This document shows positions 10,836 to 47,146 of a stretch of 56,150 nt of DNA, piece by piece. Position 1 is the stretch's first letter; every line of letters begins with the position of its first letter. Source of the stretch: a virus (lineage: Duplodnaviria; Caudoviricetes); IMG/VR virus record IMGVR_UViG_3300044858_006017, positions 1 to 56,150 of that record. One strand, given 5' to 3'. The translations under genes were made by a program, and so were the position numbers. Below the pieces are notes generated by a model. The model did no database searches. It was not told the DNA's origin and saw nothing but the letters and a program-made list of their open reading frames with translations.

Positions 10836-11440
10836 TTGTTAGCTACCGCCTTCCTTAAGCCTTTGTGGTATGAAAAAGCTACTGAAGAGGTGTCAATCAA
10901 GCAACCTGCCTCAGCCCCAAACACACTATGACCTAAAGTTTCCACGAACTCAATATAGCATTGGTGAGTATGCCCTTGAACCACTGATTTCCCTAATAAT
11001 TTTGCCTTATCTATAGCTTTCATGGGGGCAAAATCCCCGTGCATATAAATAACCTTATCGATTTCAAGAGGTTTATGGTGCCATGCCCATCCTTCAAAGT
11101 CAAACTCGTTCCATGGAGCTATCATATTCTGGTGTTTCGTGGGTAATCTGCCGATTTTAGCCGATTTAATCATCCGGTGGTCGTGATTCCCTACTAAAAT
11201 ATCCATTTCAGGGAATAATCTGTGCATTTTCTTCATGTTTTCGCACACTCGTTTATACTCGATGTCGGGAGCGTCATGGGATACTTCCTTTTCAAACCGT
11301 GACCAGGAATACCCATCGATGATGTCTCCAAGTTGAATTATCCTATCTACATTCAACCTTAAAGCCAGCTTAGCAACGGCTTGGAGCTTTACCCAGTTCG
11401 TAAAAGGAAGATGGATATCCGGTATAGCTAATACTTTCAT
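10790..11440 (-). CDS. calcineurin-like metallophosphoesterase
   Basis: DIH, GDIID, GNHD, HG, GHTH motifs. Confidence 0.85.
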   Translation of the reverse strand: MKVLAIPDIHLPFTNWVKLQAVAKLALRLNVDRIIQLGDIIDGYSWSRFEKEVSHDAPDIEYKRVCENMKKMHRLFPEMDILVGNHDHRMIKSAKIGRLPTKHQNMIAPWNEFDFEGWAWHHKPLEIDKVIYMHGDFAPMKAIDKAKLLGKSVVQGHTHQCYIEFVETLGHSVFGAEAGCLIDTSSVAFSYHKGLRKAVANKCMLIDNGHPMIISV

Positions 11441-12354
11441 TATTTTGCCTCATAAAAATTTTCACCTACCGAAAACCCCATGCCGATAGGAACAGACCAA
11501 TTCAAGACTTGATTAAGTTTGGCCACGGCAGCTTCTTTGGCCTGTCGTAGCAAATCCACTTTATCACGTGGGCACTCTAACACAACTTCATCATGTATTA
11601 CAGTGACAAAAATAAAAGGAACATTGAAAAGGGCGCACTGTTCTATTAAATAGCTGATAAACATATGTAAAAGACCTGAAACCGAACTTTGAATAAGGTA
11701 ATTACAGGCTTTATGGGTGGAATCAAACTCGCTACTGGTGTCAAACACCAACCTATATCCGAACGCATTAGAAAACCAGCCTCTTTTACCTTTTGCTTGG
11801 AGCTTATCGGCTAATTTTTTCACACCACTAAAAGTGTGCCAATAAGCCCTATAAATCTCTTGAGCTCCCTGGAATGAGATTTCCCTGTTGAAAGCTTCGT
11901 AACTCTGTTTCTGGAGCTTTTTTGGGCCTAATCCATACAATAAAGCTAACGCCACCATTTTGTAGTATTGACGGTCACTGTCTATTGGTTTTTTAACTGC
12001 TTTCGAGTCTTTGAGCCATTGGGTAACAAAATCACCTTCAGGAAATGTTTTACCCCAGAGTTCTTTTAAAAGAATCTTCCCCTCTTTCGTGGCACTCATA
12101 AACATTAAATAAATATCATCAATCATCAAAATGTTGTCAGAATCCCAAAAAGGAGGTTTTCCTACTCCATCTAAAGTAGCATACCGATAACGGATATCTC
12201 CACTATAATGCGCTGTAACTGTAGGTTCCCCCGCACAGCAGTCTATTGATATAATTAGGTTTTTTTCATCTGGTAGGAGGTAGGAGCATTGCCCCCCTAA
12301 ACCCTTTATCCCTTTATCCCTCCGAGCCAAACCTTGCACATTTAGTTTACTCAT
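11440..12354 (-). CDS. polA: DNA polymerase family A, polymerase (C-terminal) half
   Basis: Motif A IDCCAGEP, motif B RQYYKMVALALLYG, NYLIQSS, motif C IHDE. Confidence 0.85.
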   Translation of the reverse strand: MSKLNVQGLARRDKGIKGLGGQCSYLLPDEKNLIISIDCCAGEPTVTAHYSGDIRYRYATLDGVGKPPFWDSDNILMIDDIYLMFMSATKEGKILLKELWGKTFPEGDFVTQWLKDSKAVKKPIDSDRQYYKMVALALLYGLGPKKLQKQSYEAFNREISFQGAQEIYRAYWHTFSGVKKLADKLQAKGKRGWFSNAFGYRLVFDTSSEFDSTHKACNYLIQSSVSGLLHMFISYLIEQCALFNVPFIFVTVIHDEVVLECPRDKVDLLRQAKEAAVAKLNQVLNWSVPIGMGFSVGENFYEAK

Positions 12355-13385
12355 TGATTACCTCCCGCAAAACGTCCCGTGGAAGTCCCGGCAAGTTTTA
12401 GAGAAACATGCCAACGGCCGTCCTCTTCACTTAATTCCAATAGGTTTTCCAATTGGGCCATGACGATCTGTCTGTTCTTTCTTTTATCGAGTTTAGCTGC
12501 AGCCTCTCCAAACTGTTTTAAATGAGCTTTTTTCAAAGAAGGTTTCCCTTTAGGTGTGGTATATAGAGTAGGTAGCCCCATAACTTTGGTGAAAAGAATT
12601 TCTCGGTGAAGATTAGAATCAATGTTAAAAGGAACATGGGAAACTATTTTCTTTTTAAACCTAGCCTGCTCCTTTTCGGTGATAATTCTCTCCACTTCCC
12701 CAATTTCGGCCTGAAGAGTGGTCTTAAACTCTTCTTCATTCTCAGCTAGTTCTTCTTTAATAGCCTCCAGATACTTTTTAATCCCTTCCCTGTCCACACG
12801 TATCCCCCGTATTTGGGAGTCTACAACTTCTTTTGCGGTGGAGAGGTATTTAACATGATCAATACGAGGGTCAAACCCTATTCCGAAAAAGTAATCTAGA
12901 ATTAAATGGGTCAGTTTCAACGTAGCTACTGCGTCCCCGATATTATACCGCCGAAGAATATCTGGAGGTAGGCGGGATAACTCTGATTTTTTCATTTTAT
13001 TAGCCGCAAGATAAGAGTGTGCTTCGGCTTCCCATGAGAGATCTTCTTCAGAGAGAATTCTTTTTGCCGCGTCTTTAAGACCATAACTCATAATCTGGGG
13101 GCGGTTGTCATAATTTTGGACAAGTCTCATACAGTCCCAGACAATGTTTAAGGAATATTGCGGGAACTTACATTTAAGCACCATAAGCTCAAACCCTACA
13201 TTATAGACCACGACGGGATGTTGTGTATCATGGAGGTGTTTGAGTATTAAATCAATATTTTCGGGGGTGTTTGCATATTCAGACTGGATGTATACATCCC
13301 CCCAAGCAATAGCAATAGATGTTACTGAATGCTTGGGTGACCACATCTCTAGCCCTGTTGTTTCAAAATCGAGAGCTACAAGCAT
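12351..13385 (-). CDS. polA: DNA polymerase family A, 3'-5' exonuclease/thumb (N-terminal) half
   Basis: ExoI DFETTG, ExoII YNVGFE, ExoIII YNIGD, ends with TSTGRF. Confidence 0.85.
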   Translation of the reverse strand: MLVALDFETTGLEMWSPKHSVTSIAIAWGDVYIQSEYANTPENIDLILKHLHDTQHPVVVYNVGFELMVLKCKFPQYSLNIVWDCMRLVQNYDNRPQIMSYGLKDAAKRILSEEDLSWEAEAHSYLAANKMKKSELSRLPPDILRRYNIGDAVATLKLTHLILDYFFGIGFDPRIDHVKYLSTAKEVVDSQIRGIRVDREGIKKYLEAIKEELAENEEEFKTTLQAEIGEVERIITEKEQARFKKKIVSHVPFNIDSNLHREILFTKVMGLPTLYTTPKGKPSLKKAHLKQFGEAAAKLDKRKNRQIVMAQLENLLELSEEDGRWHVSLKLAGTSTGRFAGGNQ

Positions 13386-25413: not shown

Positions 25414-25755
25414 TTATCCTCCCTTTATATGGGCATAACAGTTCACGGAAGTAGCTCCTGATGTTCTGTTTAAAACAACTCGAAGATAAGGTGCGGGCTC
25501 GATTTCGGTGAAGGTGAAGCTAAGCGTCCCACTCGATCCACTGATTGTCCTATCAGCACCAATTGGGAAGGAGATTAGGGTTTCATTTAAATCTTCGTTC
25601 AAAACTCTTTCGACATTCAGTGTCCCTGTAATGGAAGATGCCCATTCCAGACAAACAATCCAGGAATAGCAAAATCTTACATCCAAGAGTTTAGAATAAT
25701 TGTTTCCTGATGAAAGAATCTCATTTTCAAAAAGTTTTACGAGTTTTGATCTCAT
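25414..25755 (-). CDS. small beta-rich virion protein (paralog of 44169 gene)
   Basis: Same length (113 aa) and pattern as 44169..44510. Confidence 0.55.
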   Translation of the reverse strand: MRSKLVKLFENEILSSGNNYSKLLDVRFCYSWIVCLEWASSITGTLNVERVLNEDLNETLISFPIGADRTISGSSGTLSFTFTEIEPAPYLRVVLNRTSGATSVNCYAHIKGG

Positions 25756-25768
25756 TTTTCACTCCAAT

Positions 25769-25802
25769 AAAAAACCCCTAGGGCTCAAAGGCAACCTAGG
25801 GG
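25769..25802 (-). terminator. intrinsic terminator after major capsid gene
   Basis: CCCCTAGG/CCTAGGGG stem followed by T6 on minus strand. Confidence 0.75.
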
Positions 25803-25825
25803 AGGAAACACCTATTTTAAGTTAA

Positions 25826-27052
25826 TTAAAAGGACAAAATTCCATTCCATCCCGGTGCGTTACACGCAAGGTTCCCATAGAAATACGCGTAGAAGTTAAC
25901 TGCGTCGTTAGGGGCATCGCGCAAAATTACTTTTCCATCTTCATCGAAGAGGGATACAGGTTCGCCGATGGAGTGGAGAGCCCAGGTGTCTAGAGTCAAC
26001 ATCCAAGCATAGGCATTAGGGCAGTTTTGGTCAGGAAGAACTTTGATAGGGCCACGAGGGCCATTAACCACCAATCCTCGGAAACCGATACCTTCCATAG
26101 GCTCTACATCACAGTAAACTACTTTAGAAGAAAGGGATTTTTCCAGTTCAGCGTATTTCTTGAAGCTCAAGAAACAAGTGTCAGGTTTTCCACCTTCACG
26201 GGCAATTTTAGAGGCAAGGTCAATCAAAGCTTCTTCGATAGTTTGAGCGGATCCATCATGGCGTAGACCACCTAGACGAACAGAGTCGACACTTCGGTCA
26301 ACACCGTAGAAAGCAGCTGCAGAGGGGGCGGATGGAGGGATCCAATCCAAAAGACCAGCCATTCTAACACCACGGTCACCAGCTAAGAAAATGTAGTCGT
26401 TAGCCGCGATAGTTCCGGAAGCGTTGTAGGTAGCTGCAACAGTAATAGTTCCAGCAGACCGGTCAACAGCTGAGATTAAAGCTCCAGTAACAGAACCATC
26501 AAAATTTCTTTGGGTTCCTGCTGAAACTGCAGACCAGATATTAACCTTTTGCCCAACTTCGAAGTTGACTACGTCTTCAGGTTCTTTCAAAGTGATTACA
26601 GTAGTAGCCGCTTCAGTAGGCTCGGCATTAACCTGTCCAATCCACCCCTCTCGGCTTCGAAAAAGAGATGTGGCAATAGACCTTTCCAATGCATGGATAA
26701 TTCCATCGGTCTCAAGTTTAAGTGCTTCAACGTAAGCTGAGCTGTTTCCACGAGAAGCTTTTAAAGTCTCATGCTGAACTGCGCCGAAAGCGTAATCCGA
26801 TACACGTGTTAGGTTGAAGTCTACCAGTTTAGAGCTGGCAGCAGCTACCTGGGCGGCAGCTTCGGATGAAGATGCAGAACGGCTTTGAGGATTACCGTAT
26901 TTCAAAGGGATTACTTTGTATTTTCCACCAAAGTTTTTGTTTTTGCTAACCATGGCGAAAAAAGGGTTAGAGGGGTAGATCATACCTTGAATCAATTCAG
27001 GGGTATAAATCTCTTTTAGGATACTTTCTGCGTTCGTGTTATTTAAAGTCAT
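25826..27052 (-). CDS. major capsid protein
   Basis: 408 aa, follows scaffold-like gene, followed by terminator; LKEIY..., GLLDWIP, YGVDRS, YGNLAC.APG. Confidence 0.8.
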   Translation of the reverse strand: MTLNNTNAESILKEIYTPELIQGMIYPSNPFFAMVSKNKNFGGKYKVIPLKYGNPQSRSASSSEAAAQVAAASSKLVDFNLTRVSDYAFGAVQHETLKASRGNSSAYVEALKLETDGIIHALERSIATSLFRSREGWIGQVNAEPTEAATTVITLKEPEDVVNFEVGQKVNIWSAVSAGTQRNFDGSVTGALISAVDRSAGTITVAATYNASGTIAANDYIFLAGDRGVRMAGLLDWIPPSAPSAAAFYGVDRSVDSVRLGGLRHDGSAQTIEEALIDLASKIAREGGKPDTCFLSFKKYAELEKSLSSKVVYCDVEPMEGIGFRGLVVNGPRGPIKVLPDQNCPNAYAWMLTLDTWALHSIGEPVSLFDEDGKVILRDAPNDAVNFYAYFYGNLACNAPGWNGILSF

Positions 27053-27070
27053 TCTTTTTACCTTTTTAAA

Positions 27071-28039
27071 TTATTTCCAGCCGGTCATGGCGGATAGTTT
27101 TTCAATAGCTCGATTCACACCTTCTTGTTCGTTCACACGTTTTACCAACATTTTAATAGGCTCAGCGGTTCCGACTAAGGTGGTTCTAAGAGTTTTTGCT
27201 TTCGCGGGAGGTGTTGTAACTTTTACCTCAGGCTGTTTGTTGACGTCAGCCTTTGAAGTCTGGGGAGGAGCCTCTTTTACTCCTGTTCCTAGCTTCTGCT
27301 TTAACTTTTCTGTCTTCAAAAAAGCCATAGCCTGTGATTCGAGGTAACTTTCTACTTTTTCTAAAGCCTTGTCAAGAGGAATTATACTTCCTGTTTCAGA
27401 AAAATAGTCAGAAACCACATCAAAAACCATATCATAGGATTCAAGAGAGGAAATAAACTCATATTTTCCGTTACTTGAGTCTACTGCTGATTTAATTGAA
27501 GATTTAAAGGTATCAATTGTTTTTTGTGCTTCAGATTGTAGTTTAGACTCTTGCTCAGCCTTCAACTTCTCCTGGAGCTCCTGTTCGGCCTTATCTTTAG
27601 CTGATAACTTCTCCTCGAGCTCTTTTAGCCGGAGCTCAATAGGGGATAGCTCAGGTTCCGGTTCGGCCACGTCTTCCCCAAGAATAGACTCCAAAATATC
27701 GGAAGCATCCGCACCAAAATGTTTTAGGATCTTTAATGCGTTTGCCTTCGGGTCTTTTTTATATTCATTAATGGCATCCAGTTCCGATTTAGCTGGGTCA
27801 ATCTCCTGTTTAAGAGCCCGGAGCTCCTTTTCTTTCTGCATAAGCTGCTGTAGAGATTTATGAACCTTCCTTTCATAGGGGGCAGGCTCTTCTACAGGAG
27901 ATGGTGGAGCCTCTTCCTTTATCGCAACTACCGAGGATTCCTCGGCAACTGGGGCAGCTACTTCAGGCACAGAAACTTCACTAACTTCAGCAACTTGACT
28001 CTCTACAGTCATACATACTCCTAAACTTTTTCCCACCAT
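27071..28039 (-). CDS. capsid scaffolding protein
   Basis: Acidic Glu/Pro-rich N-terminus, coiled coil, immediately upstream of capsid gene. Confidence 0.65.
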   Translation of the reverse strand: MVGKSLGVCMTVESQVAEVSEVSVPEVAAPVAEESSVVAIKEEAPPSPVEEPAPYERKVHKSLQQLMQKEKELRALKQEIDPAKSELDAINEYKKDPKANALKILKHFGADASDILESILGEDVAEPEPELSPIELRLKELEEKLSAKDKAEQELQEKLKAEQESKLQSEAQKTIDTFKSSIKSAVDSSNGKYEFISSLESYDMVFDVVSDYFSETGSIIPLDKALEKVESYLESQAMAFLKTEKLKQKLGTGVKEAPPQTSKADVNKQPEVKVTTPPAKAKTLRTTLVGTAEPIKMLVKRVNEQEGVNRAIEKLSAMTGWK

Positions 28040-29415
28040 TGGGAATCGTCTGTTTTGTTGTTTATACCTTTATCCAATCTATTGAAGAACCTCTTAACAG
28101 GGTCAAGTTCTTCCTCTTCTTCCTCTTCATACAGGAAGTTATAGCAAAACCTCCAAGCATACAAGAAACTATCTGTGCAATGGTTTGCACATCCTGGGTG
28201 TTCCTTTCGTTTCTCGGCCCTCTCATCGTAGATCAGACTTCTCATTTCTTCAAGCAGAGGTTCCGTCTGCTGTGCCCAGATTTTTACCCGGCCTAAAACA
28301 AGCTCCGTATTTAACACATCGATAAACTTAAATTTATCAGTCTTTTCAGCAGAACGAAGGGGGATTCCATAACGCTGTTTGAGATCTTCCACCACCTGTT
28401 TTGATGCAGGGTCAGTGATGATAGCAAAGGGATTGTAGATTTTCTGGTAGTACTTAATACGGTTTGCCACGTCCTCCACGTTCATTTTAGGCTTTTTGTA
28501 TGCCTCCACTACGTGTAAAAGCTTGTCTGTATACCCCAATACCACAAAAGCGGAATCATCATTGTATCCTAAGTCCACCCCTAGAACATAGTTCTCGAAC
28601 TCAGGGGGTTCTTTAGGCTCCAGGTTTTTATCCGACATGTGATAAATCAATAACTCATCATTTATAACCCATTCAGCCAGATACATACGCCGAAAGGCTG
28701 GTGTTTCCACGATTCTGGGATTGGCTGCTATCATAGACTCCATGTCTTCTTTCCAGTTTGCGGCCATGTAGGGGTTGTCTGTAGTATTCCATTTATGTAG
28801 TGACCACACACGCTCCTTTTCCAACCCTAGGGTGATATCGTAGAATAGGCCTTTAGCGACATCTCCAGGAGTCCCTGTGAGACAGATTGTTCCTTTCTCA
28901 TCCGTGGTGGCTGGGAATAAAATCTGGTAGACAATCCGCCTTAAATCCTGCCTAAAAGAGGCAGCCTCATCGATTGCCACGAGTTTATACTTAGCCCCCA
29001 GATATTTTTCAGTCTCCTCCTCGGAGTCATCAGCCCCTGCAAGTCGGATCACCGACCCATTAGGGAGGGTAGCTGTCAGTTCCGTCCCATTAAACTCACA
29101 TCGAAGATTAAACTTTTTGTTGAGGTCTTTTAAAATATCTTTCCAAAAGATGTTTTTTACTGACCTTCTAGTCAAAGCCAGAATCAGAATATTGCATCCA
29201 GGAAAGTCTAAAGCCGTCTGATAGGCTAACCTACCGACACTACTCGATTTTCCAGCTCTGCGACTGCAGAATGCTGCTTTTAATCGGGAAGGGTCTTTAA
29301 TGAAGTTAGCTTGGGCTGGAAACTTTTCGTCTACCAGGCTTTTGGTCTGGGGGGACTGAATTACTATCCTGTTTTTCTTCTCGGTCTGGATTAGCTGCTT
29401 TACATATACATTCAT
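28021..29415 (-). CDS. terL: terminase large subunit
   Basis: Walker A SRRAGKS, Walker B VAIDEA, GTP, nuclease GVDLG and NHCTD. Confidence 0.9.
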   Translation of the reverse strand: MNVYVKQLIQTEKKNRIVIQSPQTKSLVDEKFPAQANFIKDPSRLKAAFCSRRAGKSSSVGRLAYQTALDFPGCNILILALTRRSVKNIFWKDILKDLNKKFNLRCEFNGTELTATLPNGSVIRLAGADDSEEETEKYLGAKYKLVAIDEAASFRQDLRRIVYQILFPATTDEKGTICLTGTPGDVAKGLFYDITLGLEKERVWSLHKWNTTDNPYMAANWKEDMESMIAANPRIVETPAFRRMYLAEWVINDELLIYHMSDKNLEPKEPPEFENYVLGVDLGYNDDSAFVVLGYTDKLLHVVEAYKKPKMNVEDVANRIKYYQKIYNPFAIITDPASKQVVEDLKQRYGIPLRSAEKTDKFKFIDVLNTELVLGRVKIWAQQTEPLLEEMRSLIYDERAEKRKEHPGCANHCTDSFLYAWRFCYNFLYEEEEEEELDPVKRFFNRLDKGINNKTDDSQWWEKV

Positions 29416-29596
29416 TATTAAAATCCTCTAAAGAAAGAGGGGAAGCAAACACAATATTATTGTCAGGAACCCAGGTTTCGTTATCAAGGAGAAATCCTCC
29501 TTTAACTCTTTCAATCCTAATTGGATGTTTTGAAGAGTTAAGTTCAGTATATGTACCTTTTCGGTGAAATATCCCAGCATGAAACTTAATATGCAT
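29306..29596 (-). CDS. hypothetical protein
   Basis: GAGG-preceded ATG at 29596, between GNAT gene and terL; overlaps terL start. Confidence 0.45.
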   Translation of the reverse strand: MHIKFHAGIFHRKGTYTELNSSKHPIRIERVKGGFLLDNETWVPDNNIVFASPLSLEDFNNECICKAANPDREEKQDSNSVPPDQKPGRRKVSSPS

Positions 29597-29609
29597 GTCA
29601 ATCCTCTCA

Positions 29610-30149
29610 TTAAATACCTGATAAAAATGGATTAAATCTAAAAAAGTGAGGATGATCCTCGGGGCCACATTGTCTTTGAGGTTTGTTCTTTTCCATATAA
29701 GACTTCACCGCAGGAGACATGTGGGTAATCTGCAAACCATCTTTTTTAAGGCCTGTAGCATTCACCAACAAGTTGGCTATCCCGTATCCCCTAAACACGT
29801 CTTTAACATAGAGGTAATCCACAAACCCCCCTAATTCTTGGGAGTAGATGATGTAGCCTAGAATGTGGTCGTGGTCTTCTTTGTCCACAGCCAATAGAAC
29901 TTTCCTCAGAGGGTTTGATAACCACTTCCTGATTTGAAGCTCTTTACAACGGAAGTAGGTTTGGTGGGGGATTGCCCAATTGCCTTCACAGTTCCGGTGA
30001 GATCTCATCCAGGAATTCAGGATGAAGTTGGTATCACTTGCAATTAATGGTCTGGTCATTAGGACAGTTGTAGGGAGGGGGGTAGCCTCTGCCTTCACAT
30101 ACGGTTCATATTTTGTCTGTCCGCGATCTTTCATGAAATTTTTACTCAT
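29610..30149 (-). CDS. GNAT-family acetyltransferase-like protein
   Basis: ILGYII, DYLYVKDVFRGYGIA acetyl-CoA motif; start moved to MSKNF. Confidence 0.7.
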   Translation of the reverse strand: MSKNFMKDRGQTKYEPYVKAEATPLPTTVLMTRPLIASDTNFILNSWMRSHRNCEGNWAIPHQTYFRCKELQIRKWLSNPLRKVLLAVDKEDHDHILGYIIYSQELGGFVDYLYVKDVFRGYGIANLLVNATGLKKDGLQITHMSPAVKSYMEKNKPQRQCGPEDHPHFFRFNPFLSGI

Positions 30150-30387
30150 TGTCGTTCTCCATTTTGGAAAGGTCACTGTCACTAAGGTCTTTGAGGTCTT
30201 TGGTGAAGAGCTTTGCAACATCTAAATCATGTTTTTTTAGTTGGATTAGGGAGGCTATTATCTGTGCTGCAATTTTGGTGTGATTGGCATCTAGTTCATC
30301 TGATGAGGCAATAGCTGCCTTGAGGGAGGTGGTCTGGTCTTCTAAGACCTCAATCAGGTCCTCGAGGATTTGATCCTTTTTGTCCAT
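30142..30387 (-). CDS. putative terminase small subunit
   Basis: First gene of terL operon, helical, ends LKDLSDSDL; AGGAG RBS before ATG 30387. Confidence 0.45.
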   Translation of the reverse strand: MDKKDQILEDLIEVLEDQTTSLKAAIASSDELDANHTKIAAQIIASLIQLKKHDLDVAKLFTKDLKDLSDSDLSKMENDNE

Positions 30388-30426
30388 TGTATAACTCCTA
30401 GTGGGAATAACTGTTTCCCTACTCTG

Positions 30427-30454
30427 AGTATAGATCACGGGGTGTATGTGTCAA
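30427..30454 (-). promoter_or_regulatory. sigma70-type promoter of packaging/head operon
   Basis: TTGACA-N16-TATACT on minus strand. Confidence 0.7.
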
Positions 30455-30464
30455 CTTTTTTACT

Positions 30465-30976
30465 GTTTCCTGCTCTCGGACCGACGTCCGGCTACCTCAA
30501 AGCAAAGCTCCCCCTACCCCAGGCCTACTCTTACGAGCAGATCTAGATAAATAGTCCACCATGGGGCGGAAGGACTATTTACCTAGACGCCGCAGCTCAG
30601 AGTAAGCCCTATTCCCTAACATTACCCACAAGCCGCTCTCGGAACTATGTATTTGAGAGTTTGTTTGGGCAAGCCGCCAGTTTTTATTCCAGTTTGGAGT
30701 AGCTTTGCTGTACGGTCTTACGTACGTAGCACTGTCGTCACGACATGACACTTCAGAATAAAAAAGGTGTGATCTCAGGTTTTTCCGGGTTATTAGACAC
30801 GGCTGATCCACTGTGCGGAGGGAACGCAAAGAAACAGAAAAAGATGGTTTATTTAGTAATATGCTAATTTTTTTCATCTTTCCTCCTTTCTTCGCGCGCA
30901 AGGGTACGGTTTGCACGTTCTTGCTTGCTTCAGCCCACTAGGGGCCTACACTACCTCTATCCTTTCGATAGGGGCA
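30465..30976 (-). ncRNA. candidate large structured RNA
   Basis: Series of long hairpins whose mismatches are G-U wobbles only on the minus strand; preceded by TTGAAA-N16-TATGCT. Confidence 0.55.
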
Positions 30977-30982
30977 TTAAAC

Positions 30983-31010
30983 AGCATAACGGATTTTTTT
31001 AACATTTCAA
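30983..31010 (-). promoter_or_regulatory. sigma70-type promoter of structured RNA
   Basis: TTGAAA-N16-TATGCT on minus strand. Confidence 0.55.
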
Positions 31011-31062
31011 TAAGGGTTGTGGTAGTATGTTTAAAGTAGATATCCACTAAAAGGTTAACATC

Positions 31063-31359
31063 ATGAAAAATAAAGGGCTAGCTTCGAGAGAAAGACAGGA
31101 ACGGTTCAATACGGTAGAAGCCGGGTGGTCAACTATACCCACCTTTCTAAGATCCCAAGGGATCACGGGATCAATAGATTCTAGAGAGACTTATTTGAGA
31201 TTGTATGCCGTTTTGTACAAATTAGGTAGTGATATGAATCGAAAAGCATACACATACGAAGGAAGAAATGTTTTTTCTACTGTTTTCCGGACAGACTTTC
31301 TTTTAAAACATAAAAAAGAAATCTTTGACTTTTTAAGGGGAAAAGTAAAATTCTCTTAA
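31063..31359 (+). CDS. hypothetical protein resembling C-terminal domain of 31553 gene
   Basis: LYKLGSD..TYEG..FRTDFLLKHKKEIFDFL vs LSNIGGE..TFKG..WHPQFLDENKGRILNFL. Confidence 0.6.
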   Translation: MKNKGLASRERQERFNTVEAGWSTIPTFLRSQGITGSIDSRETYLRLYAVLYKLGSDMNRKAYTYEGRNVFSTVFRTDFLLKHKKEIFDFLRGKVKFS

Positions 31360-31369
31360 ACAAGAGGCC

Positions 31370-31396
31370 TAAAGTTCCTATAAAAACTTCCGATAA
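31370..31396 (+). promoter_or_regulatory. sigma28-type promoter
   Basis: TAAAGTTC-N11-TCCGATAA. Confidence 0.85.
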
Positions 31397-31401
31397 GGAA
31401 A

Positions 31402-31473
31402 ATGAGGGGTGAAAGCCTCTCATGACTTCTCCTTAGACTTTACCCCGGGTAATCTGCCTGGGGTTTTTCTTTT
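31402..31473 (+). ncRNA. candidate sRNA with anti-SD sequence
   Basis: Promoter, GAAA-tetraloop hairpin, single-stranded ACTTCTCCTT, then intrinsic terminator ACCCCGGG/CCTGGGGT-TTTT. Confidence 0.6.
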
Positions 31474-31484
31474 CAAAATACCTC

Positions 31485-31511
31485 TAAAGTTTGCCCGTAG
31501 AGTTCCGATGA
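31485..31511 (+). promoter_or_regulatory. sigma28-type promoter
   Basis: TAAAGTTT-N11-TCCGATGA. Confidence 0.8.
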
Positions 31512-31552
31512 GACTAGAGAGGAATGATCCTCATAGTCTTAAAGAGGCACCA

Positions 31553-32521
31553 ATGACTGATTTAGTACCGTCCCAATTCGTTTCCCCCTCCCCACGTCCT
31601 GAGCTCAATGGTGAGTTAGGCTTGGATTTGCACGAGATTGCAAAGAGTCTGGGTGTAGATTTTAAACACGTGAAAGAGAAATACCTTCGTATGGAAAAAG
31701 CCAATAGAATCAAAGGAGCCGTATATACGGCTACAATAGATTCAGGGACTTACACAGAGCGCACAATTGAGTCCTATGTCCTGGATTTAGACTCTGCCAA
31801 GTTCTTCGTTGCTAAATGGGACTCTGAAGTTGGGGACGCTTACACCCGATTCCTCATCCAATGTGAAAAGAAACTTGAGAGAACCCAATCCCAACTCGAA
31901 ACCCTTTTCACCGACCCGAGGAAAGGAGCCGAGTTTCTGACCAAGGTGGCCGAGCTTAAGGAAGAGAAGGACGCACTAGCTGCCCGAATCCCTCAATTGG
32001 AGTCGGAGAGAGACCATGCTATTAAAACAAAAGGCCAGATTTCCAGCAATAAAGCGGCAACTTCTATGGTTAGGTTAAGTAATCTGGTTCAGTATATGAG
32101 GAAAAGAGGTATCCCCATCCCTGCCTATGCGGAAATAGATAGTGAGGAGGGGGCTCTAGAGAGAGTTCGGGAACTTGAAGAACTGCTTAAAAAGCATGAT
32201 GCCGCTTTAGAGGCGTACCGGAGAAAAGAAGACCTCCAAGATGAAAAAAATCTAACCTACATCCCTACATCTAAGAACGGAACAGGGTTTAATGAGGTAT
32301 TGAAAAGATGGGGGTATATCCTCACAGTGGGGAATAACAGAGACATCAATAAAGTCATTAGGTGCTACCTGTCAAATATCGGAGGGGAAATTTTATGGGC
32401 AGATTCTACTTTCAAAGGTGCCCCCTCAAAACGGTGTCTTTGGCACCCACAGTTTTTAGATGAAAACAAAGGTCGTATTTTAAATTTTCTGACAAATGAG
32501 GGGTGGTTAAAGAAAGCCTAA
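31553..32521 (+). CDS. Rha/antirepressor-like DNA-binding regulator
   Basis: LHEIAKSLG..FKHV, SYVLDLDSAKF..FLIQCEKK, RDHAIKTKGQI; start moved to MTDLV. Confidence 0.6.
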   Translation: MTDLVPSQFVSPSPRPELNGELGLDLHEIAKSLGVDFKHVKEKYLRMEKANRIKGAVYTATIDSGTYTERTIESYVLDLDSAKFFVAKWDSEVGDAYTRFLIQCEKKLERTQSQLETLFTDPRKGAEFLTKVAELKEEKDALAARIPQLESERDHAIKTKGQISSNKAATSMVRLSNLVQYMRKRGIPIPAYAEIDSEEGALERVRELEELLKKHDAALEAYRRKEDLQDEKNLTYIPTSKNGTGFNEVLKRWGYILTVGNNRDINKVIRCYLSNIGGEILWADSTFKGAPSKRCLWHPQFLDENKGRILNFLTNEGWLKKA

Positions 32522-32545
32522 AGTTCTTCCCAAAAGTTCCGATAG
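32519..32545 (+). promoter_or_regulatory. sigma28-type promoter
   Basis: TAAAGTTC-N11-TCCGATAG. Confidence 0.85.
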
Positions 32546-32566
32546 GTTTTATAGAACGAGAGGAGA

Positions 32567-33019: not shown

Positions 33020-34000
33020 ATGGGGCAGGTAAGATTTGAGTTTTCTGAACTAAGTGTTTACGAGATGATTGCTAGTTTAAATCGAGGAAGTATACAAATA
33101 CCTTTTTATCAGCGTAAATATTCATGGGTAAAGACACGCGCGGGGAAAGAGGTAGAGTTTATCAAGTTTCTCCATAGAAACCGATGTCTAACTTCTATGA
33201 TTATTTTAGACAGACAAGCAGATAATAAGGACACACGTTTCATCCTAGATGGAATGCACCGGCTAAAGTGCCTCCAGCGGTTTTTTAATTTAGAATTTGA
33301 AGTAGAGGGGGTAGTTCCAAGAGATATTGAGGGTATTTATATTAAGATAGTTACAGGGGTTTTTGAGAGCGACAGTGACAGACTAGAGATTTTTAATAGT
33401 CTAAACACAACCTCTACAAAAATGGAGACCTCTTTTGTCCAGTATGTAACTAATAATTTAACAGACACACACCCTACCCAGCCGGTATTTAAAGCTATAC
33501 GTGAAACAGAGAATACCCATACCCTTAACGCAGAGGAGAGGCATACACAGAGGCATGTTTTATACCAAAATCTGTGTCAGTTTTTATTATCCTATTCTGA
33601 AGGGGTGGTTAAGGAGAACCCTGAAATGTATTTTCCATATACCCCTAAAAAGAAAAATGATATGGAAAATATTGTTTATGACCTACCTGAATGGGTTTAT
33701 AAAGCTGTAGAGCCTGACATTTTATCTACTGTGCTAAAGTATTTAATACTTTTCCAGTCACCCTCTTATAAAAAATATATAAAAAACGCTGCAAAAGATA
33801 GTAAATCCCCGATAGGAAAGTATTTAGCTCTTCTACTCGGGAAAATTTTTTACGAAGGCCTCTATCAAAAAGATAGTTTGTCGCTTTCTGATGAGGCCGC
33901 TGTATTAAAAAGGTTGATAGAAAAAGCTTCTGCGAAAAAATATTATAAGGTTAAAGGGGCAAACCAACTACCTATGCTATTAAAAATGGTGTGGGAATAA
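33020..34000 (+). CDS. DUF262 (ParB/Srx-like, GmrS-type) domain protein
   Basis: IPFYQRKYSW, ILDGMHRL, IFNSLN. Confidence 0.75.
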   Translation: MGQVRFEFSELSVYEMIASLNRGSIQIPFYQRKYSWVKTRAGKEVEFIKFLHRNRCLTSMIILDRQADNKDTRFILDGMHRLKCLQRFFNLEFEVEGVVPRDIEGIYIKIVTGVFESDSDRLEIFNSLNTTSTKMETSFVQYVTNNLTDTHPTQPVFKAIRETENTHTLNAEERHTQRHVLYQNLCQFLLSYSEGVVKENPEMYFPYTPKKKNDMENIVYDLPEWVYKAVEPDILSTVLKYLILFQSPSYKKYIKNAAKDSKSPIGKYLALLLGKIFYEGLYQKDSLSLSDEAAVLKRLIEKASAKKYYKVKGANQLPMLLKMVWE

Positions 34001-34016
34001 AAAGCTGCGGCAGCTT

Positions 34017-44168: not shown

Positions 44169-44510
44169 TTAAGTTCCTTTTCCTACAACATAAGCGTTAA
44201 GTGTTCCAGTCCCCGCACTGTTTGTAGCTGTAAAACGCAAGAACTTATAAGGAAAAGCTTGAAAAACTGCAATACCGTTGCCGCCGTTTGATGTAGAGAT
44301 AGTAGGAAGAGTAACTGTATACGTCGACCACGTAGAGTCATCATTTGAAACCTGGCAGGCCAATACGGAAGACACACTGCTTCCAGTCCAAATAAATTGA
44401 ACCGATAGATTGTCTACAGAAGTACAGTCTACAGGTGTAGAGGTTATGACAGAGGTGCCAGTCATAACTCCGTTTGAAATAACACGGGATCTTAAAAATT
44501 GTTTACTCAT
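44169..44510 (-). CDS. small beta-rich virion protein
   Basis: QVSNDD..W, YKFLRF; paralog of 25414 gene. Confidence 0.55.
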   Translation of the reverse strand: MSKQFLRSRVISNGVMTGTSVITSTPVDCTSVDNLSVQFIWTGSSVSSVLACQVSNDDSTWSTYTVTLPTISTSNGGNGIAVFQAFPYKFLRFTATNSAGTGTLNAYVVGKGT

Positions 44511-45247
44511 CGTGAAGCCCTTTCTATTATGTTATCCGAATCTATTGAAAATTCAAGTAAAGCTTTTTGATAAACTTCCGAAGCTTCTTCTTTGGTTTTA
44601 AAATAGCCTAAGTATTTATCACGCCCTTTAATTTTAATACGCGCCATCCATTTCTGTTTAGTTTTACAGAAAGTATACCCTTTTGTCCCTACTTTACGTA
44701 TAGATATACCTTTATTCCAGGCAATCCTTCCTTTTGATGCTTCTCCGATTTTTCTTTTGGTTTCATCAGAATGGGTTCGACCTCTTTGAGCAGCAGCTAT
44801 TCGCTCTTTTGCTTCAATTGAAAGAGGAGGGGGTTTTTTACCTTTATGTACTATACCTAATTTCATGCGATGTTCCAAGGTTCTTTCTGGCCGTTTTATA
44901 CCAACGGCCCCCTCACCTCCGTCAGTGAGATTTACTAAACACCCGCCTTTTGAGTCTCTTCGTCCATATAAGGCAATCCACTCTTTTTCCATCTTACACG
45001 CAGAAAACCACCCTAAATTTTTAGCCCAGATTTTAACTTCAGGTTTACCCAAAACGCAATGTTTTGATACGTAGCGGTACCAAAACCCACTTCTTCTGCC
45101 TTTTTCAAACTGATAGGGGCGTTTTTCGTTACCTATACCGATATAAAAAACCTGCCCGGAATCTGCATAATGGGCGTATACCACATATTTTAAGTGCTTG
45201 ATATTAGGTACTCCGTTATCTTGAATTTCTGTCAAGGGTTTAGCCAT
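44507..45247 (-). CDS. GIY-YIG-like homing endonuclease with NUMOD3 and AP2 domains
   Basis: YVVYAH...FYIGIG, LVNLTDGGEG, HSDETKRKIG, YLGYFKTKEEA. Confidence 0.75.
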   Translation of the reverse strand: MAKPLTEIQDNGVPNIKHLKYVVYAHYADSGQVFYIGIGNEKRPYQFEKGRRSGFWYRYVSKHCVLGKPEVKIWAKNLGWFSACKMEKEWIALYGRRDSKGGCLVNLTDGGEGAVGIKRPERTLEHRMKLGIVHKGKKPPPLSIEAKERIAAAQRGRTHSDETKRKIGEASKGRIAWNKGISIRKVGTKGYTFCKTKQKWMARIKIKGRDKYLGYFKTKEEASEVYQKALLEFSIDSDNIIERASR

Positions 45248-45250
45248 AAC

Positions 45251-47146
45251 TTAAACTCCTTGAGGTTGTAAAGGCATTAAATCACTTTGGGGTAATGGTG
45301 CAGGGACAGCTAACGGGGGAGGGGCAGGCTGCTGCCCTACCGGAACCGTAGCCATTGTTGGTTTATCAATGTTAGAAAGTTCATGACAATCGTCAATAAA
45401 CCTCCTTAAAAGCTCTAATCTGTTCTCAGGAACCTTAGTAGTTCTTGCTTTTTGGTAGTAGGATTGAGCCATTTGAATAGCTAATTCCAAGTTTTGATAA
45501 GGCTCTGGGGTATCATAGACACCGTCATTTATAATGTTTTCAATAGTGTTCCTAACATCATCAACTTGGGCATTAGCGAGCCCAACGGCCTGCTCAAGGT
45601 CAGGGTAGTCCAAGAGAGATAGCCCAGCCTCACGCGATAACATCCCACCTTGAACGAGCTCTTGGACAGCTTGGAGCTTGCCTACAGGAGTAGTGGGAAG
45701 CAATGATGTGGGGAACACTCTCAAAAGGAATTTATCCTCCTCATAATTAACATCCTTCCATTCAATAGTTTCCATGTATTTATTAGAAGAGACTTTTACA
45801 GATAAGTCCTTATTCTTCGTATAAAGTTCATCAGAAAAGCTACAGACCATTTTAGCAATACTCATGAAAAAGGCCTCATAACGTTGAGCCACAAGAGCAA
45901 ACCGTTCGGTTTCAATGTCCTGATATTCACGGATTGCTACACCGGAGTCTAAACCAGATGGTTTTTTAGAAGATGCTGACAACTGAGATATTCCAGAGAT
46001 TTCATAGGCTTTGTTGTAAAGACGGTCAAGGTGCATATAAGCATCCGCATTCATTCCTTGAGCTGTTTCAAAGCTTGGCTTGGTTCCAGTGTATTTTACC
46101 ACCGAGCCAATCTCGTTTGATATGTGGTCAGTGTTAACCTTCGAGCCATTTTCAACAAAAACTCTTGGGATAGCTACTAAGTCATTGGCCCTTTGGATAC
46201 TCATTAAAAGTTTGTTAATAGCAATCTGGATTCCTACTAAGTCTTCACATAGACCTTGACCATAGAATCCTAACATCTTTTCCGACCAACGGAAAAACAC
46301 GAAAGGTAGATAGTCTTTGATGTAAGGTTCGGAGAACAGTGTAGCATTGCAAACACTTATCACATGTTTACCGTCAGAGCTGTTTTTGGATGAGGGGAGA
46401 TGCCAAGATTCGACCACGGCTACCATGTTTGTGCTCATCCTAGAGCCTGCGAAACTCTCCCCCGGCTTCCCGGGAGGGGTTTCTAGGAGCTTTCCAGCCT
46501 GTGCAGGGTAAAGTTCCATTAAGACATGCCGATCAACATATTTTATCTGGTGAATTTGGCGAGGAGATCCATAAATAGCTTCTTTTTGGTCAACTATGAG
46601 CTCCATAGGAAGCACTCGTTCAACGAAAACCGAGCCATTATCCTCATCTACACCTACTTTTACCGCGCCAATACCTGTAATACAGGAATCAACAAAGCAT
46701 TTTTGCCCTATCTCGTAGACATTGTTCTGGTCAAAGAACCCGTCGCAGTATTTGGTTAAGTTTTTTGCAGCTTTACTTAAGGTAAAATCTCCCCCAGAGG
46801 TCAGGAAATAGGCTCTTGGGCGACTTTTAGCTATCTTGGCTGCAGCAGAATCAATGCAGGATTTAATTACATTTAAAGTTAGCCTGTTGGAGTTGAGTAG
46901 ATGAGGGGAAGCACTCTGGGTGAACTGATAAAGCCCAAAACCAATGAAATCTTGGTTAGAGTATAGTCTAGCAAACTTGATAAAGTTTGAATAAAGAGAT
47001 GCGTTATCTTTATTTATCAGGTCGATAACCGCAAAAATAGATTCAAAGCTTTTAGAGTCTTCTAGACGCCACCAAGTTCGATCGTATTCCTCAATGGTCT
47101 GATATTTTTGATACATTTTAAATTTCATTACTGGTCTTTCGCTCAT
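45251..47146 (-). CDS. portal protein
   Basis: 631 aa; NVIKSCID..AAKIAK.RP, G.GAVKV, P.V.FRW....GFYGQG, SGVAIREYQD. Confidence 0.8.
   Translation of the reverse strand: MSERPVMKFKMYQKYQTIEEYDRTWWRLEDSKSFESIFAVIDLINKDNASLYSNFIKFARLYSNQDFIGFGLYQFTQSASPHLLNSNRLTLNVIKSCIDSAAAKIAKSRPRAYFLTSGGDFTLSKAAKNLTKYCDGFFDQNNVYEIGQKCFVDSCITGIGAVKVGVDEDNGSVFVERVLPMELIVDQKEAIYGSPRQIHQIKYVDRHVLMELYPAQAGKLLETPPGKPGESFAGSRMSTNMVAVVESWHLPSSKNSSDGKHVISVCNATLFSEPYIKDYLPFVFFRWSEKMLGFYGQGLCEDLVGIQIAINKLLMSIQRANDLVAIPRVFVENGSKVNTDHISNEIGSVVKYTGTKPSFETAQGMNADAYMHLDRLYNKAYEISGISQLSASSKKPSGLDSGVAIREYQDIETERFALVAQRYEAFFMSIAKMVCSFSDELYTKNKDLSVKVSSNKYMETIEWKDVNYEEDKFLLRVFPTSLLPTTPVGKLQAVQELVQGGMLSREAGLSLLDYPDLEQAVGLANAQVDDVRNTIENIINDGVYDTPEPYQNLELAIQMAQSYYQKARTTKVPENRLELLRRFIDDCHELSNIDKPTMATVPVGQQPAPPPLAVPAPLPQSDLMPLQPQGV

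What the first reader, a model, noticed from the sequence alone, without database searches (positions are those of the whole stretch)
30465..30976. About 500-nt highly structured RNA candidate at the main strand-divergence point
Seen: a gene-poor interval packed with hairpins. These include a nested stem at 30522-30608 (TCTAGGTAAATAGTCC/GGACTATTTATCTAGA inside GGCTTACTCT/AGAGTAGGCC on the minus strand), TTTTTATTC/GAATAAAAA enclosing smaller stems, a ~20-bp stem at about 30825-30895, and a 5' stem CCCCTATC/GATAGAGG. Several mismatches are G-U pairs only on the minus strand, which also has a sigma70-like promoter at 30983-31010. A G-rich tract GGGGTAGGGGGAG lies near the 3' end. An AAGGAGG RBS and ATG (30877) are fully buried in a stem. 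Inference: an unnamed large ncRNA, a translationally locked mRNA, or an R-loop-forming replication pre-primer (ColE1 RNAII-like logic would suit a PolA phage).
Basis: partly seen in the sequence, partly recalled or inferred. Interest (0 to 1): 0.72.

Follow-up and report, generated by a model that had tools for sequence, protein, structure and literature searches.

The report
Large folded RNA in lake phage
A roughly 500-base stretch between two gene blocks of an uncultured lake phage appears to make a heavily folded, non-protein-coding RNA of no known family, whose folds are kept intact by matching mutations in related phage variants.

Summary
Window 30470-30976 lies in the only large non-coding gap of a complete 56-kb freshwater phage. 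Its minus strand folds far better than shuffles (z -5.5; plus strand -2.8). No Rfam family, tRNA or tmRNA matches.

One DNA relative (L004, 93% identical overall) has 10 substitutions here. Seven fall in predicted pairs and none breaks a pair. Two are double compensatory changes and three act through G-U pairs that exist only on the minus strand. Random substitution sets do as well in 0.02% of trials.

Two further variants are known only as gene-caller proteins. They also show two apparent breaks.

The 100-codon ORF behind the strong RBS shows no coding signature. Its changes fall 2/3/3 by codon position, 6 nonsynonymous to 2 synonymous, its codon score is poor, and it has no homologues outside this locus.

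Function is open. No terminator separates the RNA from the leftward operon promoter. My best guess is a structured leader or processed stable RNA of that operon. A free-standing GOLLD/ROOL-like RNA is nearly as likely. The ColE1 RNA II-like primer idea is untested. Only one phage lineage carries it.

The parts
30983..31010 (-). P1, a sigma-70-like promoter (TTGAAA-16-TATGCT) that would start the RNA near 30976
   Evidence: The consensus scan gives 9 of 12 matches, which is not significant by itself. The low-divergence block shared with L004 begins at 31015, 5 nt upstream of the -35 hexamer.
30470..30976 (-). Body of the structured RNA, about 507 nt. The 5' end is inferred from P1 and the 3' end is not defined.
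   Evidence: Fold statistics are. The consensus fold has 163 pairs with 0 broken in L004.
30952..30976 (-). H1, the 5'-terminal hairpin (CUAUC/GAUAG core 30971-30957)
   Evidence: Pair probability is 0.99. The P0122 clade has a 1-nt deletion in or beside the loop that leaves the stem intact.
30932..30946 (-). H2 hairpin (GGCCC/GGGCU). Its loop and 3' arm are complementary to the ribosome-binding region of the first operon gene.
   Evidence: The loop base 30940 changes in the P0122 clade.
30898..30924 (-). H3 hairpin
   Evidence: The outer helix is invariant. The inner helix loses its end pair in the P0122 clade (30904 C>A, inferred).
30824..30897 (-). H4, a long hairpin containing AGGAGG and AUG 30877-30875
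   Evidence: In L004, 30887 A>G with 30834 U>C is compensatory, and 30836 U>C turns G-U into G-C. In the P0122 clade 30829 U>A gives an A.A mismatch (inferred).
30681..30764 (-). It crosses the long-range helices of the MFE model.
   Evidence: It is a perfect 9-nt inverted repeat. P0122 has 30757 U>C with 30688 A>G, which is compensatory. P0123 has 30687 A>G, giving U.G. Both are inferred from proteins. The fold constrained to include X has -173.3 against -179.8 kcal/mol.
30710..30725 (-). Covarying 5-bp hairpin (GUACG/CGUAC)
   Evidence: Two pairs covary. The window has U-A and A-U. L004 has C-G at 30724/30711 (DNA). P0122 has C-G at 30723/30712. P0123 has both.
30616..30680 (-). Arm A of the 3' domain
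   Evidence: Pair probabilities are 0.93-0.98. In P0123, 30670 G>A turns G-U into A-U (inferred).
30521..30609 (-).
   Evidence: Pair probabilities are 0.96-0.98. 30579 A>G turns A-U into G-U in L004 (DNA) and in the P0122 clade. On the plus strand this would be a C.A mismatch.
30491..30730 (-). 3' domain as closed in the MFE model by 30730-26/30495-91, 30709-01/30509-01 and 30699-96/30513-10. The last of these uses the G-rich tract 30510-30522.
   Evidence: 30698 U>C turns G-U into G-C in L004. In P0123, 30696 C>U and 30706 A>G are wobble-compatible if their partners are unchanged. Partners of three other changes are unknown.
30477..30490 (-). 3' hairpin CGGAC-GUCG-GUCCG. An A-run follows it, not a U-run, so it is not an intrinsic terminator.
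30427..30454 (-). P2, a near-consensus promoter (TTGACA-16-TATACT) of the leftward operon
   Evidence: It matches 11 of 12 positions. A relative's contig in run X20 keeps 29400-30455 and diverges exactly at 30455.
30142..30387 (-). g81, the first gene of the leftward operon (ATG 30387, SD AGGAG 30399-30395)
   Evidence: All 12 substitutions against L004 are at third codon positions. Its protein cluster has 19 members.
30575..30877 (-). 100-codon ORF inside the RNA, judged not to be under protein-coding selection
30999..31028 (+). Rightward promoter-like site (TTAACA-18-TAGTAT with TG), back to back with P1
30410..30470 (-). Two exact GGAAACAGT copies (30410-30418 and 30462-30470) flanking P2, 52 nt apart
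   Evidence: The motif is not enriched in the genome: 14 matches with up to 1 mismatch against 15.5 expected.

Best explanation
Window 30470-30976, minus strand, is a non-coding, highly structured RNA of about 0.5 kb. Its fold is under selection.

STRUCTURE. It has an array of 5' hairpins (H1-H4) and a central helix X. The 3' part has two long arms and long-range pairings, and may be pseudoknotted.

INFERRED STEPS. Host sigma-70 RNA polymerase starts at P1 (31010-30983). No terminator lies before the operon promoter P2 (30454-30427). P1 transcripts therefore run on into the 27-kb leftward operon (g81, terminase, capsid, replication genes).

PROPOSED MECHANISM. I propose that the element is the structured 5' leader of a long mRNA isoform. 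It would act in cis, by protecting the 5' end, resisting Rho, or masking the g81 ribosome-binding site. It may also be trimmed to a stable RNA.

SHOWN. The structure, its strand, compensatory evolution, the lack of a coding signature and the lack of a known family.

INFERRED. The promoter, the read-through and the cis role.

ODDS. About 0.8 that it is a selected non-coding RNA structure. About 0.4 that its main role is in cis on the operon.
For: FOLDING. The minus strand has z -5.46 against -2.81 for the plus strand. Only 2 of 446 genome windows fold lower.

DNA VARIANT L004. It was fetched and compared. The block 31015-30365 has 10 substitutions and 1 indel in 651 nt. Fourfold sites of the flanking genes differ by 17-26%: TerL 42/173, MCP 41/196, GNAT-like 15/76, g81 5/30, g98 9/35.

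Of the 10 substitutions, 7 lie in pairs predicted from the window sequence alone, and 0 break a pair. There are 2 double compensations (30887/30834 and 30724/30711). Three one-sided changes act through G-U: 30836, 30698 and 30579.

PERMUTATION TEST, 20,000 sets of the same substitution types:
- P(no broken pair) = 0.020
- P(at least 2 double compensations) = 0.0012
- P(energy as low as observed) = 0.0002

PROTEIN-PROXY VARIANTS P0122 and P0123. Hairpin 30725-30710 occurs in four haplotypes, all Watson-Crick. Helix X has one compensatory pair (30757/30688) and one wobble change.

NOT CODING. Changes by codon position are 2/3/3. Two codons changed synonymously and 6 nonsynonymously. Fourfold sites changed at 2/45. 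The codon score is 0.022 bits per codon, below 23 of 24 small phage genes. There are no homologues beyond the locus.

CIS ROLE. No terminator-like site lies between the RNA and P2. The low-divergence block runs on through P2 and the 5' UTR to codon 8 of g81. The duplex 30952-30933 with the g81 ribosome-binding region has -22.5 kcal/mol, and 9 of 1000 shuffles do as well. In a fold through to 30360 this pairing has probability 0.93.

An RNA-library contig covers 30737-30930. This shows presence only, not transcription.
Against: Only one full DNA relative was available, and it is 98% identical in the element. Most predicted pairs never vary, so they are untested.

The low divergence of the block could come from a recent recombination patch rather than selection. 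Mosaic breakpoints at 30455 and 30872 show that recombination happens here.

The P0122 and P0123 changes are inferred from proteins by parsimony, so silent changes are invisible. They include two apparent breaks: 30829, giving A.A in H4, and 30904 at the end of H3. Three changes (30726, 30691/30692, 30583) have unknown partners and would break pairs if those partners are unchanged.

Against the cis model:
- P2 is a near-consensus promoter just downstream.
- A relative keeps P2 and the operon but has different sequence upstream, so the operon does not need the element.
- The P0122 clade changes two bases (30948, 30940) inside the proposed anti-RBS segment.

P1 matches only 9 of 12 positions, and promoter-like sites are not enriched here (4 found against 2.3 +/- 1.6 expected).

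No strand-specific transcript evidence exists.
Confidence: 0.45

Rival explanations
1. It is a free-standing, stable, trans-acting or self-assembling large RNA, of the same kind as GOLLD or ROOL. It would be an accessory module with its own promoter. Its function would lie elsewhere, for example host takeover, counter-defence or a scaffold, and not in regulating the neighbouring operon.
For: The boundaries look modular. One relative keeps P2 and the operon without the element, with a breakpoint at 30455. Another contig shares only the part to the right of 30872. Conservation starts at P1. Stable hairpins sit at both ends of the element. Size and helix count are in the range of the ornate phage RNAs, whose function is also unknown (passages of 10.1101/2024.12.08.627333). 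Helix X crosses other helices, which suggests a pseudoknotted fold. The neighbouring rightward genes are variable accessory genes, and the GmrSD_N gene is replaced in L004.
Against: There is no terminator or defined 3' end. No tRNA genes are nearby, unlike many GOLLD and ROOL loci. No match to any Rfam model was found. The element is found in one phage lineage only. There are no expression data.
Confidence: 0.3
2. It is a replication pre-primer like ColE1 RNA II. The folded transcript would form a persistent hybrid with the template through its G-rich 3' segment. It would then be cut and extended by the phage family-A polymerase, so the gap would be the origin.
For: The size (about 500 nt), the multi-hairpin fold and the G-rich tract 30510-30522 followed by an A-run resemble RNA II as I recall it; no call tested this. 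The phage encodes a split PolA and a helicase. Cumulative GC skew has its minimum at 29-31 kb.
Against: No antisense (RNA I-like) promoter lies opposite the 5' part. The skew minimum coincides with the switch of gene orientation and is explained by that. In the fold the G-tract is paired within the RNA. The replication genes lie 15 kb away. No iterons or AT-rich unwinding element were seen. A relative lacks the element at this place.
Confidence: 0.08
3. It is a real small-protein gene (ORF 30877-30575) on a structured, translationally masked mRNA. This would be a swappable accessory gene behind a conserved promoter and RBS cassette.
For: AGGAGG sits 5 nt before an ATG, followed by a 100-codon open frame. 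The frame stays open in all four variants. The breakpoint at 30872, just after the ATG, looks like a cassette junction.
Against: There is no synonymous bias (2 against 6), and fourfold sites are conserved at 2/45 against 17-26% in the neighbours. The residues that change are exactly the base-paired nucleotides, and they change in step. The codon score is poor. There are no Pfam or PHROG hits and no homologue outside the locus. In the contig that shares only the 5' part, the printed letters after the junction give ATG AAA TGA, a stop at the third codon. The translated frame changes about twice as fast as g98: 23 of 133 residues against 8 of 98 for what is probably the same contig.
Confidence: 0.07
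4. It is a DNA-level element, such as single-stranded DNA hairpins of an origin, or a packaging or regulatory site, and not an RNA.
For: The gap lies upstream of the terminase genes and at the divergence point. Two exact GGAAACAGT copies flank P2.
Against: Six wobble-mediated changes fit pairing only on the minus strand, so a double-stranded or cruciform element is excluded. Only a minus-strand single-stranded form would fit. A promoter-like site sits at the start of the conserved block. A contig from an RNA library covers part of it.
Confidence: 0.05

Closest known systems
GOLLD and ROOL (large ornate RNAs of phages and prophages)
   Same: Phage-borne, several hundred nucleotides long, with many helices kept by covariation. 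No protein product and no known function. GOLLD was first seen in lake metagenomes (passages read).
   Different: No match to their Rfam models, nor to any of the 4227 families. No tRNA genes nearby. Known from one phage lineage only. No terminator. Self-assembly is untested.
ColE1 RNA II replication pre-primer
   Same: About 0.5 kb, a multi-hairpin fold, a sigma-70-type promoter and a G-rich segment near the 3' end. The resemblance is recalled, not tested.
   Different: No antisense RNA I-like promoter. No evidence of an origin. The G-tract is predicted to pair within the RNA. The element is absent from a close relative.
Cis-acting leader RNAs of long operons (HK022 put, EAR) and 5' stem-loop mRNA stabilisers
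   Same: It lies between a promoter and a very long operon with no terminator in between, and it has a 5'-terminal hairpin.
   Different: It is five to seven times larger than those elements (sizes recalled). A strong second promoter, P2, lies downstream of it. No match to the Rfam antitermination families.
hok-type type I toxin mRNAs (folded, translationally locked)
   Same: The SD and AUG sit inside a hairpin, and long-range pairing is predicted in an mRNA-sized RNA.
   Different: The ORF is 100 codons, is not hydrophobic and is not under coding selection. No antisense promoter was found.
Candidate structured RNAs of IMG/VR viruses (Fremin et al. 2023, PMC10690425)
   Same: It comes from the same data source (an IMG/VR contig) and rests on the same type of evidence, covariation in an intergenic region.
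   Different: That catalogue spans 29-151 nt (passage read), whereas this element is about 500 nt. Whether sub-motifs of it are listed could not be checked, because the supplements are closed.

Membership tests
Any Rfam 15 family (including GOLLD, ROOL, OLE, HEARO, raiA, 6S, tmRNA, RNase P, introns, riboswitches, ribozymes, EAR) | The covariance-model score reaches the family's gathering threshold | tested here: not met
   There were 0 matches in the whole window at gathering thresholds. In 30300-31150 at E<=10 the only hit was a snoRNA model at 21 bits against 45 needed, E 4.3. ARAGORN found 0 tRNA or tmRNA genes.
Large ornate phage RNAs (the kind, not a family) | An RNA over 400 nt with many helices supported by covariation | tested here: inconclusive
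   163 pairs are predicted. Compensatory changes are seen in 3 helices (H4, hairpin 30710-30725, helix X), and wobble-compatible changes in 4 more places. Only 1 DNA variant and 2 protein-proxy variants were available, and 2 apparent breaks were seen.
Large ornate phage RNAs (the kind, not a family) | Frequent neighbourhood of tRNA genes | tested here: not met
   No tRNA gene was found in the 56-kb genome.
Large ornate phage RNAs (the kind, not a family) | Homo-oligomeric RNA-only assembly | not testable with these tools
   This needs purified RNA and cryo-EM or light scattering.
ColE1 RNA II-type primer | An antisense regulator (RNA I) promoter opposite the 5' region | tested here: not met
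   No plus-strand promoter-like site lies within 30465-30976.
ColE1 RNA II-type primer | DNA synthesis starts at the RNA 3' end (an origin) | not testable with these tools
   The GC-skew minimum at 29-31 kb is confounded with gene orientation.
Protein-coding gene (ORF 30575-30877) | Substitutions biased to synonymous sites | tested here: not met
   Changes by codon position are 2/3/3, with 2 synonymous and 6 nonsynonymous codons. For comparison, TerL has 9/1/78 and g81 has 0/0/12.
Protein-coding gene (ORF 30575-30877) | Homologues beyond the locus, or a known domain | tested here: not met
   There was 1 hit among 1.84 billion representatives, and it is the same locus. No other hit was found among 5.8 billion clusters. 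No Pfam or PHROG family matched.
Protein-coding gene (ORF 30575-30877) | Codon usage like the genome's genes | tested here: not met
   The score is 0.022 bits per codon. 23 of 24 small genes score 0.15-0.53.
Protein-coding gene (ORF 30575-30877) | A ribosome-binding site and a start codon | tested here: met
   AGGAGG lies 5 nt before ATG 30877.
Intrinsic-terminator-bounded sRNA gene | A GC-rich hairpin followed by a U-run at the 3' end | tested here: not met
   The only minus-strand terminator-like hit lies inside arm B. None lies between 30520 and P2.
CsrA/RsmA-sponge RNA | Many GGA motifs in loops | tested here: not met
   There are 10 GGA motifs against 9.5 expected from base composition.

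The most novel reading that the evidence does not exclude
This is the first member of a new class of large (about 0.5 kb), possibly pseudoknotted, phage-borne RNAs. It would work as an RNA in its own right, as a swappable accessory module at the head of a phage's variable early region. It would be comparable to GOLLD and ROOL, with a role in host takeover or counter-defence or as a self-assembling scaffold, and not as a simple leader.
Probability: 0.25. Interest if true: 0.8.

Novelty: new member of a known kind. Interest (0 to 1): 0.6.

Why it matters
Structured RNAs longer than about 400 nt are rare in bacteria and phages. Those that have been characterised turned out to be ribozymes, ribonucleoprotein cores or self-assembling cages.

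A new example in an abundant, uncultured lake phage would add to the few large phage RNAs known. The element was seen in runs of 12 studies. It sits in a mosaic spot between two promoters, which gives a concrete system for asking what such RNAs do.

The case also shows that a strong RBS followed by a long open frame can be a by-product of RNA structure, a trap for phage annotation. Two gene callers reported the frame as a protein.

Tried and rejected
SEARCHES FOR MORE HOMOLOGUES
- blastn (distant mode) of 30300-31150 against 50,697 phage records gave no match.
- Searches of IMG/VR with the two flanking small proteins found no relative.
- The translated-frame search of IMG/VR and of GTDB genomes found nothing.
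- A 25-nt pattern from the SD region had 0 matches in IMG/VR.
- 80 loci of TerL relatives (40-51% identity) showed no similarity by blastn. The nhmmer step in that same script failed and gave no result.
- A covariance model of the 240-nt 3' domain found only the window and L004, plus one 10.6-bit hit at E 1.6, in 84 sources and 904,806 bases.
- Several TerL relatives have gaps of 300-1000 nt. I did not fold them.
- No paralogue exists elsewhere in the window.
- The plus-strand frame 30346-30543 had no protein on record.

READ LAYING
- The table of differing letters was cut before the region, so the X16 and X19 variant positions inside the RNA could not be read.
- RNA run X19 covers only 30737-30930 of the 2.6 kb laid. 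The run was chosen by words from this region and holds contigs, not reads. The lack of cover on the flanks is therefore no evidence of higher expression.

IDEAS DROPPED OR WEAKENED
- CsrA sponge: GGA motifs are not enriched.
- Tandem repeats or operator arrays: GGAAACAGT is not enriched in the genome.
- Intron: there are no flanking exon halves, because the upstream neighbour is on the other strand.
- The anti-RBS pairing is kept only as a weak lead, because the P0122 clade changes two of its bases.
- The first parsimony pass called H1 broken in P0122. This was a frame artefact. The N-terminus is the window's other frame, joined by a 1-nt deletion near the loop.

TOOLS AND LITERATURE
- Four literature searches found no description of this element.
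- The supplements of PMC10690425 could not be seen.
Full report
CONTEXT. The window is a complete virus record of 56,150 bp: linear, with CheckV completeness of 100%. Eighteen runs, all labelled lake-water or freshwater metagenomes, hold at least half of the sampled words of 30300-31150. In all, 20 rows from 12 studies hold the stretch or part of it.

The genome is densely coding. The gap between g81 (30142-30387, minus strand) and g98 (31063-31359, plus strand) is its only large non-coding interval.

To the left runs a minus-strand block of about 27 kb. It holds a GNAT-like protein, the large terminase, the major capsid protein, PhoH, a helicase and a split family-A DNA polymerase. To the right lie an Ant-like protein, a GmrSD_N protein, a class II ribonucleotide reductase, dUTPase, dCMP deaminase and thymidylate synthase.

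OBSERVATION.

The minus strand of 30440-31010 folds to -191.7 kcal/mol. Shuffles give -156.5 +/- 6.45, so z is -5.46, and 0 of 100 shuffles fold as well. The plus strand reaches -168.3, z -2.81. Against the genome itself, only 2 of 446 windows of 507 nt (both strands) fold lower than the -179.8 of 30470-30976. Both of those lie in a GC-rich tail-fibre gene. Of the 163 consensus pairs, 23 are G-U and so exist only on the minus strand.

No Rfam family reaches its threshold anywhere in the window. At E<=10 the region gives only a noise hit. There are no tRNA or tmRNA genes.

PROMOTERS AND TERMINATORS. Three promoter-like sites frame the region:
- P1 on the minus strand at 31010-30983, 9 of 12 matches.
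- A rightward site at 30999-31028, back to back with P1.
- P2 on the minus strand at 30454-30427, TTGACA-16-TATACT, 11 of 12 matches. It lies just upstream of g81, whose SD is at 30399-30395 and ATG at 30387.

No terminator-like site lies between the structured part and P2.

COMPARATIVE EVIDENCE FROM DNA. A translated-frame search of JGI metagenome contigs returned one locus, L004. It matches window 25584-32563 at 93% identity.

The block 31015-30365 carries 10 substitutions and one 1-nt indel in 651 nt. The next 46 nt to the right carry 11 differences. Fourfold-degenerate sites of the flanking genes differ by 17-26%.

The structure was predicted from the window sequence alone. Seven of the ten substitutions fall in its pairs, and none breaks a pair:
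- 30887 A>G with 30834 U>C is compensatory.
- 30724 U>C with 30711 A>G is compensatory.
- 30836 and 30698 each turn G-U into G-C.
- 30579 turns A-U into G-U.

On the plus strand, the G-U state at each of the last three places would be a C.A mismatch.

In 20,000 random sets of the same substitution types:
- 2.0% broke no pair.
- 0.12% had two double compensations.
- 0.02% gave an energy on the window's structure as low as L004's. L004 scores -188.3, the random mean is -175.8 +/- 3.4, and the window itself scores -179.8.

The low divergence alone could be a recent recombination patch. The direction of the changes cannot be explained that way.

IS THE ORF A GENE? The 100-codon frame (P0121) has a strong RBS.
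- Its 8 substitutions fall 2/3/3 by codon position, with 2 synonymous and 6 nonsynonymous codons. TerL shows 9/1/78 and g81 shows 0/0/12.
- Its fourfold sites changed at 2 of 45.
- Its codon-usage score is 0.022 bits per codon, below 23 of 24 small genes of the phage.
- Pfam and PHROGs give nothing.
- An exhaustive phmmer search of 1.84 billion representatives found one protein, P0122, at 86% identity.
- The 5.8-billion-cluster search found only that same protein.

TWO MORE VARIANTS, KNOWN ONLY AS PROTEINS. P0122 and its cluster mate P0123 are gene-caller ORFs on short Logan contigs. They therefore serve as translated proxies of two further variants of the locus.

Their N-terminus, MPLSK, is the window's other reading frame starting at 30977. 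A 1-nt deletion beside the H1 loop joins it to the ORF frame, so the H1 stem is intact.

Nucleotide changes were inferred by parsimony. Silent changes cannot be seen this way.
- Hairpin 30725-30721/30714-30710 has four haplotypes, all Watson-Crick. The window has U-A and A-U. L004 has C-G at 30724/30711. P0122 has C-G at 30723/30712. P0123 has both.
In P0122, 30757 U>C goes with 30688 A>G. In P0123, 30687 A>G gives U.G.
- Three more changes are wobble-compatible: 30670, 30706 and 30696.

Against the model, the P0122 clade shows these:
- 30829 U>A gives an A.A mismatch in the lower stem of H4.
- 30904 C>A is at the end of the inner helix of H3.
- 30864 G>A could be compensated silently.
- Three changes (30726, 30691/30692, 30583) have partners outside the ORF. 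They would be breaks if those partners are unchanged.

Local folds with the inferred changes keep H3 and H4, but weaker: -7.7 against -9.7, and -17.0 against -23.7.

The translated frame differs at 23 of 133 residues in P0123. g98, from what is probably the same 2723-nt contig (P0147), differs at 8 of 98.

ARCHITECTURE.
- Well supported: H4, hairpin 30710-30725 and helix X.
- Consistent with the data: arms A and B, and the helix that uses the G-tract.
- Untested because invariant: H1, H2 and outer H3.

Helix X crosses the long-range helices of the nested MFE model. Either the RNA is pseudoknotted or these are alternative folds. Forcing X costs 6.5 kcal/mol in a nested model.

MOSAICISM. A 2549-nt contig in RNA-library run X20 matches 29400-30455 and then diverges exactly at the -35 hexamer of P2. 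A contig in X16 matches only to the right of 30872. Its printed letters past the junction read ATG AAA TGA. The element is therefore a replaceable module between conserved flanks. A 194-nt contig in RNA-library run X19 lies on 30737-30930. This shows presence in an RNA library only.

FUNCTION. The data show a selected, strand-specific, non-coding RNA structure. They do not show what it does.

There is no terminator before P2, so I take P1 transcripts to read into the operon. The low-divergence block also runs through P2 and the 5' UTR to the first codons of g81. On that basis I favour a structured leader or processed RNA of the leftward operon.

A specific masking model pairs 30952-30933 with the g81 ribosome-binding region. 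The duplex has -22.5 kcal/mol, 9 of 1000 shuffles do as well, and its probability in the long fold is 0.93. It is weakened by two changes inside that segment in the P0122 clade.

The modular boundaries and the strong P2 favour a free-standing RNA almost equally.

The RNA II-like primer idea remains a recalled resemblance. It has no antisense promoter and no independent sign of an origin.

DISTRIBUTION AND LITERATURE. No homologue was found in:
- phage records;
- IMG/VR;
- GTDB genomes;
- 80 loci of terminase relatives, by blastn or by a covariance model.

In print I saw:
- passages of the cryo-EM paper on GOLLD, ROOL and OLE;
- passages of the IMG/VR structured-RNA catalogue, whose candidates are 29-151 nt (PMC10690425);
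- search listings only for the other papers.

None of these describes this element. The catalogue's supplements, which might list sub-motifs of it, were closed.

VERDICT. This is a real and probably new large structured phage RNA. It is known from one lineage and its function is unknown.

Noticed in passing
window 33022-34009; L004 60-2109: The GmrSD_N-domain gene (33020-34000) of the window is absent from L004. About 2 kb of unrelated sequence sits between the matching flanks there. The early rightward region is therefore mosaic.
   Followed up: partly
window 30455 and 30872: These are recombination breakpoints seen in public contigs. One relative keeps the P2 promoter and the operon but has at least 490 nt of different sequence upstream. 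Another shares only the promoter-proximal 100 nt of the RNA.
   Followed up: partly
window 8751-9507, plus strand: This is the lowest folding energy in the genome (-196.8 and -185.1 kcal/mol for 507-nt windows, GC 52-55%). It lies antisense to a tail-fibre-like gene (8051-9730, Peptidase_S74 chaperone domain). No tandem repeats were found.
   Followed up: partly
window 11440-13385: The family-A DNA polymerase is split into two adjacent ORFs (12351-13385 and 11440-12354) that overlap by 4 nt.
   Followed up: no
window 44507-45247: An HNH or homing endonuclease gene lies directly beside the portal gene (45251-47146). The portal is far from the terminase and capsid genes (25826-29415), which is an unusual module order.
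   Followed up: no
window 30410-30418 and 30462-30470: Two exact GGAAACAGT copies sit 52 nt apart and bracket the P2 promoter. They could be operator half-sites. The motif is not enriched genome-wide.
   Followed up: partly
window 30560-30565: The apical loop of arm B contains the palindrome CCAUGG. Such loops mediate kissing-loop dimers in other large RNAs. No variant information is available for it.
   Followed up: no
L009 1337-2282, L052 3186-4196, L067 2565-3637, L012 2187-2752: Several phages with related terminases also have ORF-free gaps of 0.5-1 kb, one of them directly upstream of the terminase match. They were not folded or compared.
   Followed up: no
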